Assembly: GCF_000026545.1 (NCBI RefSeq)
Contig: NC_011601.1
Source of the DNA: Escherichia coli O127:H6 str. E2348/69
Lineage (GTDB): Bacteria > Pseudomonadota > Gammaproteobacteria > Enterobacterales > Enterobacteriaceae
Reading direction: 5' to 3' (one strand)
DNA: 64,000 nucleotides
Part shown: piece after piece, positions 25,301 through 27,640 of the stretch
Layout of the letters: the number at the start of each line of letters is the position of its first letter
How positions within the stretch are numbered: position 1 is the first letter of the stretch
Position numbers: made by a program

Positions 25301-27640
25301 AGGCGCTGGCATTGGGCGTCAATCATATTGATACCAGCGACTTTTATGGTCCGCACGTCACCAATCAGATTATCCGCGAAGCGCTTTATCCGTACTCTGA
25401 CGACCTGACAATTGTCACTAAAATTGGTGCGCGGCGTGGAGAGGACGCTTCCTGGTTACCCGCATTTTCTCCGGCAGAGCTGCAAAAAGCGGTACACGAT
25501 AATCTACGTAATCTCGGCCTGGACGTACTGGATGTGGTTAACCTGCGCGTTATGATGGGGGATGGTCATGGCCCAGCGGAAGGATCGATTGAAGCCAGCC
25601 TTACCGTGCTGGCGGAGATGCAACAACAAGGCCTGGTAAAACATATTGGCCTGAGTAACGTCACACCGACGCAGGTTGCAGAGGCGCGAAAGATTGCCGA
25701 AATCGTCTGCGTGCAGAACGAATACAACATTGTCCACCGAGCTGATGACGCAATGATTGATGCTTTGGCTCGTGATGGCATTGCCTACGTGCCATTCTTT
25801 CCGCTCGGGGGCTTTACGCCGCTGCAATCCTCCACGCTTTCCGATGTTGCTGCGAGCCTTAATGCGACACCAATGCAGGTGGCGCTGGCGTGGCTGTTAC
25901 AGCGTTCACCGAATATTTTGCTGATTCCTGGCACCTCTTCGGTGGGACATCTGCGGGAGAATATGGCGTCCGATGAATTAGTGCTAACGGATGACGTGCT
26001 GGCAACGCTGGACAGTATTTCGCAAAAGGCGGGTTAAATAAAAAAACCTCCCACTTTCGTGCTGTCTCTTGATCAGATCTCCTGATCAAGAGACTTCATC
26101 ACCAGGTAACCCTCAACCATATCCTGAAGTCTGAACCAGCCATCCCACATGACTACCCAACCGGGGCGACCGGTGCGTTTGCTGTCATGCCATCGCCCCA
26201 GTTTCGCCAGTTTCAGACAGGCCCATTTCAGTGTCGGCATCTGTGACGGAAGCGGTTTTCCTTCCAGCTTAACCCACAGCAGTTTCCACTCTGTCGGCGT
26301 CAGTATTTTCTCACAGCTGTCATTTTGTGTTTCTTCACTGATACCGCCCTGCCGCAGGCCCAGCACCCGCACCGCGATAAACGCCTTGATAACCACCATG
26401 CGCTCGAGGTTATCCCGGGTCTGCATTCGCAGCGATTCCACACATGTACCACCACTTTTCCACGCCTTGTGGTATTCCTCTATCAGCCAGCGTCGCTCGT
26501 AATGGCTGACGATACGTCGCGCATCGGCGGCACTCGCCACTTTTTCTGACGTCAGCAGATGCCAGCAGGCGCCGTCCTCTGCCTGCTCCCGGCAACAGAC
26601 ATACGTGAGCGGGAGCGCCTGGCCGCTGTTGTCGGGATTTTTTATGCTGACTTCGCTGTAACTGATGAACATCCGGGCCTGGCGGGCTGCCCGCCCGCCT
26701 TTTTGCATCACATTCAGCGTGTGGCTTCCCGCGGTTGCCAGGACTTCCGGCAGTTCGAAGAGCTTGCCGGGTGCTTCTTCCAGCCGGCGATTCTGTGCTG
26801 CACGCACCACGAAGCGCTGCCCGTGGCTGACTTTATAATGCAGGTAATGCCAGATATCCGCTTCCCGGTCACAGACAGTGATTACCCGTTTCTGTATCTC
26901 CCCCAGCCGTTCGGCCATGCGCTCCGAAGCCTGCTGCCAGCGGTAACTTTCTTTTTCTTCATAGGGACGTTCTTTTCGCTGGTGCTTAACACCGTAGGTG
27001 TCCGTGGCACGACTCCAGCGCTGCTGTTCGATAAGACCGACTGGCAGGGCGCTGTCGGGGGCGTACATCAGGACAGAGTGAGCCAGCAGCCCGCGCGTCT
27101 TCGGGTTAGTGGTGGTATTCCCCAGGTCATCAGATGCCGTACTGTGACTGAAGTTAATGGTGGTGGTGTCTTCCAGCGCGAGGAGCAGCGGATGAGCCTC
27201 ACATGCCCTTACAGTGGCGGTAAATCCGGCTTCGGCAATGGCTTGCGGGGACACAGACGGGTTACGTATCAGGCGGTACGCACCTTCAACCTGAGCAGTG
27301 GACTGGGATGATTTCACAATAGAAAGACCTGCATGCTGAGCGAGAGAAGAGGCCAGTGACACAAGGCGTCGTGTACGACGCGGATCACCGAGACGGGCAT
27401 GTCCAAACTGCTCGTTAGCCCATGAATAACAATCAGAAAGTACCATAACAGACCCGAAGAAAATGAAATATAAGAGAAGATCAACGGGTGAGGAAAAAGT
27501 TCAAAAAATCGCTGCCGGGGAGGAAGGAAACTACCGGATGGAAAGAGTCCCCCTAAAGCAGACTGACAGACATCACAAATCCCCGGGTGGGGATTTGTGT
27601 ATAAGAGACAGCACTTTCGTGGGAGGCATCATAAATCTTA

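What the first reader, a model, noticed from the sequence alone, without database searches (positions are those of the whole stretch)
26061..27611. IS50-like element inserted precisely into the loop of the ydbC/azoR bidirectional terminator
Removing the IS and one TSD copy restores AAAAAACCTCCCACTTTCGTGGGAGGCATC, a perfect hairpin (CCTCCCAC / GTGGGAGG) with A/T flanks that would terminate both convergent genes. The insertion splits the stem arms onto opposite sides of the IS. Since azoR and the transposase are both on the minus strand, azoR read-through could now run into the transposase gene, and ydbC loses its terminator as well.
Basis: seen in the sequence. Interest (0 to 1): 0.5.

Follow-up and report, generated by a model that had tools for sequence, protein, structure and literature searches.

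The report
ISEc13 inserted in azoR terminator loop
A Tn5-like mobile element (ISEc13) sits exactly in the loop of the hairpin that ends the azoR gene in E. coli E2348/69. This is not a one-off: ISEc13 and its relatives in many gamma-proteobacteria almost always insert at the tip of such GC-rich terminator hairpins.

Summary
The window is E. coli O127:H6 E2348/69. It is flanked by a 10-bp duplication, CACTTTCGTG. Removing it restores AAAAAAACCTCCCACTTTCGTGGGAGGCATC, which is the real sequence in 643 other complete E. coli genomes. Only the 3 E2348/69-lineage genomes carry the insertion.

The hairpin is a canonical intrinsic terminator for azoR only. It has no T-tail on the pdxI/ydbC strand, so "bidirectional" is not supported by sequence. 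Read-through from azoR into the transposase gene is plausible, because no terminator-like site remains between them, but it is untested.

The main addition is that the site choice is systematic. ISEc13 sites follow CCYCY-N8-10-RGRGG, with the duplication centred on the hairpin tip. Relatives at about 50% identity in Vibrio and Shewanella, and elements in other marine genera that share the same end sequence, sit in A-tract/T-tract terminators with duplications of 8-13 bp. Orientation is random. Whether the transposase reads sequence half-sites or an extruded hairpin is unresolved. I found no published description of this specificity in the library I could search.

The parts
25171..26037 (+). 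pdxI (ydbC) coding sequence, pyridoxine 4-dehydrogenase; the stop codon is at 26035-26037
   Evidence: ORF list; RefSeq annotation of the same locus in E2348/69 and R9
26040..26051 (.). A7 tract (26040-26046) plus CCTCC (26047-51), the lower part of one stem arm, left on the pdxI side of the IS. On the azoR (minus) strand this is the 3' arm GGAGG plus the U-tract of the terminator, now 1.56 kb from azoR
   Evidence: Sequence; terminator scan of the empty site
26052..26061 (.). Left copy of the 10-bp target-site duplication CACTTTCGTG, made of the top 3 bp of each arm plus the 4-nt loop
   Evidence: the repeat finder family D14; empty site in R9 and A25
26062..27611 (-). ISEc13, 1550 bp, intact. 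It is 100% identical to the second copy in the window and to copies in other strains
26062..26094 (.). IE-type end (CTGTCTCTTGATCAGATCT) and a perfect 13-bp subterminal hairpin (26064-26076 / 26082-26094) that contains the transposase stop codon
   Evidence: (inverted repeat I5)
26073..27446 (-). Transposase gene, 457 aa. It is a Tn5 transposase homologue with the DDE residues aligned (LEDTT, CDREAD, RWLIEEYHKAWK)
   Evidence: NF033590, 514 bits; Tn5 Tnp E = 6e-84
27574..27611 (.). OE-type end (minus strand CTGTCTCTTATACACAAAT) with a perfect 11-bp subterminal hairpin (27574-27584 / 27589-27599). The terminal 23 nt are conserved exactly in relatives from at least 9 marine genera
   Evidence: (inverted repeat I16)
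27612..27621 (.). Right copy of the 10-bp target-site duplication CACTTTCGTG
27622..27637 (.). GGAGG (lower part of the other stem arm) plus the 11-nt spacer up to the azoR stop codon. On the azoR mRNA this is the 5' arm of the former terminator
27638..28243 (-). azoR coding sequence (FMN-dependent NADH-azoreductase), co-oriented with the transposase gene
40723..42272 (-). Second, identical ISEc13 copy with the 10-bp duplication CCTCTGTAAG. It is nested in a degraded IS3-family element, and its target is a weaker hairpin that still shows the arm pattern (CCGCT / AGAGG)

Best explanation
The feature is an intact copy of ISEc13 (IS4 family, IS50 subgroup, a cut-and-paste DDE transposase homologous to Tn5 Tnp). 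It transposed recently, in the E2348/69 lineage only, into the apex of the azoR intrinsic terminator.

**Shown.** The staggered cuts fell three base pairs down each side of the stem. The 10-bp duplication therefore holds the top of the stem plus the tetraloop, and the lower arms (CCTCC and GGAGG-T7) ended up on opposite sides of the IS.

**Shown.** The site was not picked at random. ISEc13 selects targets of the form CCYCY | N8-10 | RGRGG, a pyrimidine-rich arm and a purine-rich arm in inverted orientation. In a genome such sites are mostly the GC stems of intrinsic terminators and similar hairpins. The element cuts right next to each arm. Close and distant relatives do the same with their own arm motifs (AAAAGCCY | N9-11 | RGGCTTTT in the Vibrio owensii-type element, CCA | N10-13 | TGG in the Shewanella and V. 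fluvialis types). The duplication length therefore follows the spacing of the arms, 8-13 bp over the clade.

**Inferred.** The two subunits of the transpososome each read one arm. The variable spacing means the DNA between the arms is distorted or extruded at strand transfer.

**Inferred consequence.** The azoR mRNA has lost its terminator and probably reads into the IS, sense to the transposase. The orientation itself is a coin flip. The effect on pdxI is probably small, because the hairpin never had a U-tract on that strand. Inserting in a 40-bp gap between two convergent stop codons disrupts no coding sequence, which makes terminator tips a low-cost landing site.
For: **Identity**
- Copies 100% identical are annotated ISEc13, with 30 places in E2348/69 and full-length copies in 873 of 5,426 genomes.
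- The transposase matches Tn5 transposase at E = 6e-84 over its full length and NF033590.

**Recent and lineage-specific**
- The junction occurs in only 3 genomes.
- The empty site occurs in 643 genomes, one of them 100% identical over 138 nt.
- The two window copies are identical.

**Terminator**
- The empty site has a 9-pair stem, a GAAA loop and a T-run on the azoR strand.

**Specificity of ISEc13**
- 13 independent two-flank sites have duplications of 8 to 10 bp centred on the MFE hairpin loop.
- Mean MFE is -17.5 against -6.7 kcal/mol for random windows, p = 2.5e-9.
- Arm complementarity is 5.00 of 6 against 3.69 after permutation, with 0 of 5000 permutations reaching the observed value.
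- In 45 distinct outward flanks, positions +10 to +13 are G in 32-39 cases, and no pyrimidine occurs at +11 or +12.
- Flanks swapped by IS-IS recombination still carry the half-site.
- One site was used in both orientations (L008 and L162).

**Relatives**
- 61 of 77 distinct flanks from Vibrio, Neiella, Shewanella, Alishewanella, Aliagarivorans, Photobacterium and Rheinheimera show a hairpin top followed by a T-run, against 5% of control positions.
- In the V. owensii-type element (52% aa identity), all 9 two-flank sites are textbook terminators; a tenth copy has mismatched flanks.
- The Shewanella aestuarii and V. fluvialis types behave the same way (terminators, duplications of 10-13 bp); the single Serratia site has C-rich/G-rich arms that pair only partly, and no T-tract.

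**Gene context**
- The gene upstream typically ends 25-60 nt before the IS, often as one of a convergent pair.
Against: - The sites are survivors in sequenced genomes, so purifying selection contributes to the intergenic bias. It cannot explain the base-precise centring or the arm motif.
- The number of independent two-flank ISEc13 sites is modest (13), and 10 of them come from one genome.
- ISPlu9 (57% identity) shows C-rich/G-rich flanks but no hairpins and sits in coding DNA, so the preference is not uniform in the clade.
- Sequence reading and structure reading cannot be separated. In about 460 kb of E. coli-like DNA only 15 distinct matches to the two-arm motif exist, and 80% of them are already perfect hairpins.
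- No transcript data were available, so loss of azoR termination and read-through are inferred only.
- No sigma-70-like promoter was found for the transposase.
Confidence: 0.85

Rival explanations
1. Structure-specific targeting. The transposase recognises an extruded hairpin or cruciform (a four-way junction on supercoiled DNA) and cuts each hairpin arm at a fixed height above the stem base. Whatever lies above, upper stem plus loop, becomes the duplication.
For: - Duplication length varies from 8 to 13 bp and follows the hairpin, while the 3-5 nt left outside stay constant. In the V. owensii-type element the GC core and duplication lengths pair as 17 and 9, 18 and 10, 19 and 11. V. fluvialis-type cores of 20-21 give 12-13. 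One Alishewanella jeotgali genome shows 8, 8, 9 and 11.
- A 5-bp range is hard to reconcile with a rigid transpososome acting on straight B-DNA (inference).
- Complementarity exceeds what the arm consensus alone gives (permutation test).
- The outer two positions inside the duplication pair far above chance: 1.3-2.0 of 2 against 0.5.
Against: - Each element has its own arm sequence (RGRGG, RGGC-T, YGG), which argues for base-specific contacts.
- ISEc13 uses sites with poor pairing but good C/G arms (L003, L004, window copy 2), and ISPlu9 uses non-hairpin sites.
- Hairpins with G-rich left arms were never seen among the ISEc13 sites.
- Genomic matches to the motif are mostly hairpins anyway, so the extra complementarity may simply reflect the pool of available sites.
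- Variable duplications of +/-1 bp are already typical of the IS4 family (PMC2266710).
Confidence: 0.3
2. No real target preference. ISEc13 inserts more or less randomly like Tn5, and only harmless insertions in short gaps between convergent genes survive, so terminators are enriched by selection.
For: - Terminator gaps are neutral places.
- All data are from natural genomes, not from unselected insertion libraries.
- Tn5, the best-studied relative, has only a weak consensus (cited in PMC1525189).
Against: - Selection cannot place the cuts symmetrically around the hairpin tip to the base, nor produce an almost invariant G/A run at +10 to +13 from the IS end.
- The same arms are present at insertions inside other mobile elements and coding DNA (window copy 2; L011 and L003), and in flanks reshuffled by recombination.
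- The same pattern recurs in more than 9 genera.
Confidence: 0.03
3. The insertion is functionally selected: the IS uses the azoR promoter to drive its transposase (read-through activation), or the IS supplies regulatory signals to azoR or pdxI.
For: - azoR and the transposase are co-oriented.
- No terminator-like site is left between them, and no sigma-70-like promoter is detected for the transposase.
Against: - Orientation relative to the T-tract is random over 35 sites (14 versus 15).
- At convergent gene pairs either orientation has an upstream co-directional gene, so the arrangement is automatic.
- At this site the read-through RNA is predicted, if anything, to pair its flank (GAAAGUG|CUGU) with the transposase start region.
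- The insertion is confined to one lineage.
Confidence: 0.1

Closest known systems
IS50 / Tn5 (IS4 family, IS50 subgroup)
   Same: - The transposase is homologous over its full length (E = 6e-84), with the DDE and YREK residues aligned.
- It has a single ORF whose stop codon lies in the inside-end repeat, and 5'-CTGTCTCTT ends.
- From my memory of the IS50 sequence, the IE-type end is identical to the 19-bp IS50 IE, and the OE-type end differs from the IS50 OE at 2 positions.
   Different: - Tn5 makes a fixed 9-bp duplication and has only a weak target consensus (A-GNTYWRANC-T, Goryshin 1998, cited in PMC1525189).
- ISEc13 makes duplications of 8-10 bp (10 here) and requires C-rich and G-rich arms just outside the duplication.
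- ISEc13 has perfect subterminal hairpins at both ends.
IS1272 / TnSha1 (IS1182 family) in staphylococci
   Same: It targets hairpins that are confirmed transcription terminators, with multiple independent hits in the same hairpin and in both orientations (PMC4923244).
   Different: - It belongs to an unrelated transposase family.
- It cuts in the stem, deletes part of the hairpin and makes no duplication.
- No primary-sequence consensus has been reported for it.
- ISEc13 keeps the whole hairpin sequence, duplicates its tip and shows a clear arm motif.
REP/palindromic-unit targeting IS: IS1397 and ISKpn1 (IS3 family), IS621, ISPpu9 and ISPa11 (IS110 family), ISRm22 (IS4 family, IS4Sa subgroup)
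   Same: They insert into extragenic palindromes, often between convergent genes. ISRm22 shows that an IS4-family enzyme can do this (PMC1525189; PMC2266710 notes conserved target arms for ISRm22 and some IS4-subgroup elements).
   Different: - Their targets are a repeated sequence family (REP/BIME).
- ISEc13 targets are unrelated single-copy terminators that share only short arm motifs.
- IS110-family targeting is RNA-guided (PMC11208160), which is a different mechanism.
IS231A (IS4 family) target consensus
   Same: From memory of Hallet et al. 1994 (cited as ref. 21 in PMC2266710): a short GC-rich inverted-repeat consensus, GGG(N)5CCC, with duplications of 10-12 bp. That is a palindromic target read by an IS4-family transposase with a variable duplication length.
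   Different: - The polarity is opposite: G-run then C-run lying inside the duplication, against C-run then G-run lying outside it.
- It belongs to a different subgroup and host.
- It is not linked to terminators.
Group IIC introns
   Same: They home to sites defined by intrinsic terminator stem-loops (from my knowledge: Robart, Seo and Zimmerly 2007; PMC2504315 mentions targeting of transcriptional terminators).
   Different: They are retroelements that insert just after the terminator by reverse splicing into single-stranded DNA. They do not insert in the loop, make no duplication and have no DDE transposase.

Membership tests
IS4 family, IS50 subgroup (ISEc13) | DDE transposase with the Y(2)R(3)E(6)K signature, encoded by a single ORF without a frameshift | tested here: met
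   One 457-aa ORF. The alignment to Tn5 Tnp shows LEDTT, CDREADI and HYERRWLIEEYHKAWK aligned to the Tn5 catalytic motifs. NF033590 scores 514 bits against a cutoff of 160.
IS4 family, IS50 subgroup (ISEc13) | Terminal inverted repeats beginning 5'-CT (subgroup consensus CW------Y---CA-A--W-; PMC2266710) | tested here: met
   Both ends start CTGTCTCTT.
IS4 family, IS50 subgroup (ISEc13) | Size 1350-1550 bp and direct repeats of 8-9 bp (PMC2266710, table) | tested here: inconclusive
   The size of 1550 bp fits. The duplication is 10 bp at both window copies and 8-9 bp at 11 other ISEc13 sites, so the range is one base wider than tabulated.
IS4 family, IS50 subgroup (ISEc13) | Sequence identity to the named element | tested here: met
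   100% identity over 1550 bp to copies that RefSeq annotates as 'IS4-like element ISEc13 family transposase'. The ISfinder reference entry itself could not be consulted.
Intrinsic (Rho-independent) terminator of azoR | GC-rich stem, 3-8 nt loop, followed by a T/U-run on the transcribed strand, just after the stop codon | tested here: met
   The empty site has a 9-pair stem (6 GC), a GAAA loop and the tail TTTTTATTTA, starting 10 nt after the azoR stop. Function in vivo was not tested.
Bidirectional terminator (serving pdxI as well) | U-run after the hairpin on both strands (A-tract on one side, T-tract on the other) | tested here: not met
   On the pdxI strand the hairpin is followed by CATCATAAATCTTAT, and the scan reports no plus-strand site. 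Termination of pdxI in vivo is not testable here.
Hairpin/terminator-targeting insertion sequences (functional class) | Independent insertions recurrently located in hairpins, beyond chance and beyond selection | tested here: met
   Positions are base-precise and symmetric about the hairpin tip.
Hairpin/terminator-targeting insertion sequences (functional class) | Recognition of DNA structure rather than sequence | not testable with these tools
   Motif matches in the genome are themselves mostly hairpins. Resolving this needs mutated targets and controlled supercoiling.

The most novel reading that the evidence does not exclude
A whole clade of natural Tn5-like transposases (ISEc13 and relatives in Vibrio, Shewanella, Alishewanella, Neiella and others) is a terminator-tip homing system. 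The enzyme would recognise the base of an extruded GC hairpin or cruciform and cut at a fixed height on each arm, so the duplication length (8-13 bp) is set by the hairpin and not by the enzyme. That would be a new mode of target capture for a cut-and-paste DDE transposase. It would also be a natural 'safe-harbour' variant of the enzyme family used for tagmentation.
Probability: 0.25. Interest if true: 0.8.

Novelty: new variant of a known kind. Interest (0 to 1): 0.55.

Why it matters
**The single insertion is ordinary.** It is a lineage-specific copy of an annotated IS. Its local effect is that azoR in EPEC E2348/69 has lost its terminator, which matters for anyone reading transcript maps of this reference strain.

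**The wider pattern is more interesting.**
- Tn5 is the textbook near-random transposase, yet its natural relatives here show one of the sharpest insertion preferences I could document: the tip of terminator hairpins.
- This explains how an element can reach about 30 copies per genome at low cost.
- It predicts where new copies will land, which is useful for IS typing and for assembly-gap interpretation.
- It predicts recurrent damage to terminators of convergent genes.
- It offers a natural starting point for engineering site-selective Tn5-type enzymes.
- The variable duplication that follows the spacing of the arms poses a concrete mechanistic question (half-site reading or cruciform capture) that simple plasmid assays could settle.

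Tried and rejected
- **Nine-bp duplication plus one extra IS base.** Rejected, because the bases next to the IS tips vary between copies.
- **IS10/IS50-style fold-back protecting the transposase start from read-through transcripts.** The predicted accessibility of the AUG region is the same (about 0.5) for read-through RNAs from 12 other sites and for transcripts starting inside the IS. Only the azoR site gives lower accessibility (0.38), through a chance match of its flank. This is not an intrinsic feature.
- **Orientation bias relative to the T-tract or to upstream genes.** None was found (14 versus 15). The apparent "upstream gene always co-directional" pattern is automatic at convergent pairs.
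- **Fixed number of stem pairs inside the duplication (measuring from the loop).** Not constant, ranging from 0 to 4. The constant feature is the arm just outside the duplication.
- **Known RNA family in or near the site.** No Rfam match at E <= 1 in 25000-28600.
- **Promoter for the transposase.** No sigma-70-like match.
- **ISPlu9 as a further terminator-targeting relative.** It is not one.
- **Literature.** Searches for ISEc13, IS50-subgroup target specificity and terminator-targeting IS found nothing on this clade. Two searches failed on syntax, and the E2348/69 genome paper is not held.
- **Separating sequence from structure recognition by a background motif census.** Not resolvable, because the motif is rare and mostly hairpin already.
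Full report
**What is there.** The window is the chromosome of enteropathogenic E. coli O127:H6 strain E2348/69; both the IS and its flanks match NZ_CP059840.2 at 100%.

Between the convergent genes pdxI (formerly ydbC; 25171-26037, plus strand) and azoR (27638-28243, minus strand) lies a 1550-bp element at 26062-27611. Its ends are CTGTCTCTTGATCAGATCT on the left and, on the other strand, CTGTCTCTTATACACAAAT on the right. It carries one 457-aa ORF on the minus strand, 26073-27446. RefSeq annotates the identical sequence as an "IS4-like element ISEc13 family transposase".

The protein aligns over its whole length with Tn5 transposase (E = 6e-84), with the catalytic motifs in place, and it matches NF033590. 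From my memory of IS50, the left end equals the 19-bp IS50 inside end, and the right end differs from the outside end at two positions. The label "IS50-like" is correct.

**The duplication and the empty site.** CACTTTCGTG occurs at 26052-26061 and at 27612-27621. The duplication is truly 10 bp. In other copies the base before and the base after the IS vary, so neither belongs to the IS.

Deleting the IS and one repeat gives AAAAAAACCTCCCACTTTCGTGGGAGGCATC. This is not only a reconstruction:
- Strain R9 has it with one A fewer.
- Strain A25 matches 138 nt of the reconstruction at 100%.
- 643 of 5,426 complete E. coli genomes carry the uninterrupted pdxI-hairpin-azoR arrangement.

The filled junction occurs in three genomes only, all of the E2348/69 lineage. 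The two ISEc13 copies in the window are identical over 1550 bp, and E2348/69 has about 30 places matching the element. The insertion is therefore recent and lineage-specific.

**Is the hairpin a bidirectional terminator?** In the empty site the gap between the two stop codons is 39-40 nt and consists essentially of the hairpin. On the azoR strand it reads GCCUCCCAC-GAAA-GUGGGAGGU followed by U-rich sequence, with a predicted energy of -18.7 kcal/mol. The consensus scan calls it a terminator-like site.

On the pdxI strand the same hairpin is followed by CAUCAUAAAUCUUAU, and the scan reports nothing. By sequence criteria it is the azoR terminator, not a bidirectional one. Whether it also stops pdxI transcripts cannot be decided here.

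After the insertion no terminator-like site is left on the minus strand between azoR and the transposase start. Read-through from azoR into the IS is therefore plausible but unproven.

**The site choice is systematic.** Other ISEc13 copies were collected from three sources:
- a second E. coli genome (10 loci);
- the second copy in the window;
- gut and food metagenome contigs.

Thirteen independent sites with both flanks have duplications of 8 bp (8 sites), 9 bp (3) or 10 bp (2). In almost all of them the duplication is the tip of a GC-rich hairpin. Examples:
- ACTCCCCC|GCGTGAAGC|GGGGGAGT
- AGATCCCC|CCGCTCGG|GGGGATTTTTTT
- AACCCTCT|GTAGTAAC|AGAGGGTTTT

The statistics are as follows:
- Forty-nucleotide windows centred on the sites fold at a mean of -17.5 kcal/mol, against -6.7 +/- 3.4 for random windows. 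Of the sites, 85% fall below the control 5th percentile (p = 2.5e-9).
- In 45 distinct flanks read outward from either IS end, positions +10 to +13 are G in 32-39 cases, and no pyrimidine occurs at +11 or +12.

The consensus is CCYCY | N8-10 | RGRGG. Flanks that no longer match each other because two IS copies recombined still carry the half-site, and they pair up across loci (L009/L010). One site was hit in both orientations (L008 and L162). The second window copy sits inside a degraded IS3-family element, and even there the arms are present. Survival of harmless insertions cannot produce this base-precise geometry, so I treat it as an intrinsic target preference.

**The preference is shared by relatives.** The terminal 23 nt of the OE-type end occur exactly in 81 stretches from Vibrio, Neiella, Shewanella, Alishewanella, Aliagarivorans, Photobacterium, Rheinheimera and Aeromonas-like genomes. 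Of 77 distinct flanks, 61 consist of a short palindrome (the hairpin top) followed by a few GC bases and a T-run starting at position 12-19. Only 5% of control positions show this.

- **V. owensii-type element (52% aa identity):** all 9 two-flank sites are textbook terminators, AAAAGCCY | N9-11 | RGGCTTTT; a tenth copy has flanks that do not match each other.
- **ISPpr3, a Shewanella aestuarii element and a V. fluvialis-type element:** these behave alike, and the last has duplications of 12-13 bp. The single Serratia site (71% identity) has C-rich/G-rich arms that pair only partly and no T-tract.
- **One Alishewanella jeotgali genome:** duplications of 8, 8, 9 and 11 bp.
- **ISPlu9 of Photorhabdus (57% identity):** an exception, with G/C-rich flanks but no hairpins, located in coding DNA.

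**How it probably works.** The constant feature is the short arm immediately outside each cut: CYCY/RGRG in ISEc13, GCCY/RGGC next to the A/T-tracts in the Vibrio element, and CCA/TGG in others. The duplication length follows the distance between the arms. In the V. owensii-type element, GC cores of 17, 18 and 19 nt give duplications of 9, 10 and 11 bp; in the V. fluvialis type, cores of 20-21 give 12-13.

I infer that each subunit of the dimeric transpososome reads one arm and cuts beside it. A spread of up to 4-5 bp implies that the DNA between the arms is bent, melted or extruded at strand transfer.

Two readings remain open:
- **Sequence half-sites on duplex DNA.** This is favoured by the element-specific arm motifs, by ISEc13 sites with poor pairing but good arms, and by ISPlu9.
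- **Capture of an extruded hairpin or cruciform.** This is favoured by the variable duplication and by complementarity beyond the consensus (permutation test).

They cannot be separated here. Matches to the two-arm motif are rare, with 15 distinct matches in about 460 kb, and 80% of them are perfect hairpins anyway.

**Consequences at this locus.** The 5' arm of the terminator stays with azoR. The 3' arm and U-tract now lie 1.56 kb away, beyond the transposase gene.
- Orientation is not a design feature. Over 35 sites the T-richer side lies at the transposase 3' end 14 times and at its 5' end 15 times. At convergent gene pairs either orientation has an upstream co-directional gene.
- I found no IS-intrinsic fold-back that would hide the transposase start in read-through RNA. 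Only the azoR flank happens to pair with it in silico.
- Transcripts entering from the pdxI side would run antisense to the transposase. They would meet a strong terminator-like hairpin at 26681-26699.

**Comparison with what is known.**
- Hairpin or palindrome targeting is known in other IS families. IS1272/TnSha1 (IS1182 family) inserts into confirmed terminator hairpins but deletes part of them and makes no duplication (PMC4923244). IS1397, ISKpn1, IS621, ISPpu9 and ISPa11 target REP elements.
- Within the IS4 family, ISRm22 sits in REPs (PMC1525189), and IS231A has a short GC inverted-repeat consensus (cited in PMC2266710; the details are from memory).
- The 2008 review of the IS4 family lists the IS50 subgroup with 8-9-bp repeats. 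It mentions striking target arms only for the IS4 and IS4Sa subgroups (PMC2266710).

I found no description of terminator-tip targeting for ISEc13 or the IS50 subgroup in the searchable library. ISfinder/TnPedia and subscription papers could not be checked.

**Verdict.** The single insertion is ordinary. The family-wide homing to terminator tips, with a duplication that follows the hairpin, is a new variant of a known kind of behaviour and is worth a direct experimental test.

Noticed in passing
window 40723-42272 and surroundings (about 39500-46000): A second, identical ISEc13 copy (10-bp duplication CCTCTGTAAG) is nested in a frameshifted IS3-family element. Next to it lie another IS3-family fragment, an ISEc21 (IS110 family) copy and a truncated chemotaxis-receptor gene. 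The region is a small pile-up of degraded IS elements.
   Followed up: partly
window 26064-26094 and 27574-27599: Both IS ends carry perfect subterminal hairpins: 13 bp overlapping the IE-type end and the transposase stop codon, and 11 bp overlapping the OE-type end (CACAAATCCCC-ACCC-GGGGATTTGTG). The OE one is conserved exactly in the relatives from marine genera that the 23-nt pattern retrieved. Its form (C-run, short spacer, G-run) resembles the element's own target arms. Function unknown.
   Followed up: partly
window 26681-26699 (+ strand, antisense to the transposase gene): A strong terminator-like hairpin, GGCGGGC-TGCCC-GCCCGCC followed by TTTTT, lies inside the transposase coding region on the opposite strand. 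Two weaker ones lie nearby (26618-26636 and 26526-26538). They could stop transcripts entering from the IE side. Five sites were found in the region against 2.6 +/- 1.8 in shuffles, which is not significant overall.
   Followed up: no
window 27592-27611 (OE-type end): The first 16 nt of this natural end (CTGTCTCTTATACACA) equal the first 16 nt of the engineered hyperactive Tn5 'mosaic end' used in tagmentation kits (CTGTCTCTTATACACATCT, from memory). Adapter-trimming tools could therefore clip genuine reads at ISEc13-type ends.
   Followed up: no
window about 24000-24420 (L002 1848-2207): Directly upstream of paaY lie two abutting pseudogene fragments: a helix-turn-helix regulator fragment and a paaX fragment. 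ydbA, ydbD and ynbA-D are absent between paaY/pdxI and azoR. This is a deletion scar of the tynA-feaB-paa region, and it explains why pdxI and azoR are neighbours only in a subset (643) of E. coli genomes.
   Followed up: partly
L009 and L010 (CP148541.1, about 2.305 and 2.366 Mb); L080 and L081 (Alishewanella jeotgali): Pairs of IS copies whose duplications match across loci rather than within a locus (CTCCCCAA/CGAACCAG; GGCAGTTGACC/GCAATAGC). This is the signature of inversion or recombination between two inverted IS copies, spanning about 60 kb in the E. coli case.
   Followed up: partly
L116, L118, L121 and other metagenome loci: A frequent 1539-bp ISEc13 variant has non-matching flanks (ACCTCC|AGATAAGTA ... 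CCGCACAG|GGAGATT), and there are shortened copies of about 954-957 bp between GAACCCCCAGCTAGGC and GGCTATGCCGGAGGATATT. Intact versions of both latter hairpins occur in the same sequence set. This probably reflects a conserved plasmid or island context with rearranged or internally deleted copies.
   Followed up: no
window 27582-27611 flank plus 27433-27446: At this particular site the azoR-side flank and IS tip (GAAAGUG|CUGU) are complementary to the transposase start region (AUGGUACUUUC). The predicted read-through RNA pairs them (11 pairs; unpaired probability 0.38 against about 0.52 at other sites). This looks like a coincidence of this target sequence.
   Followed up: yes
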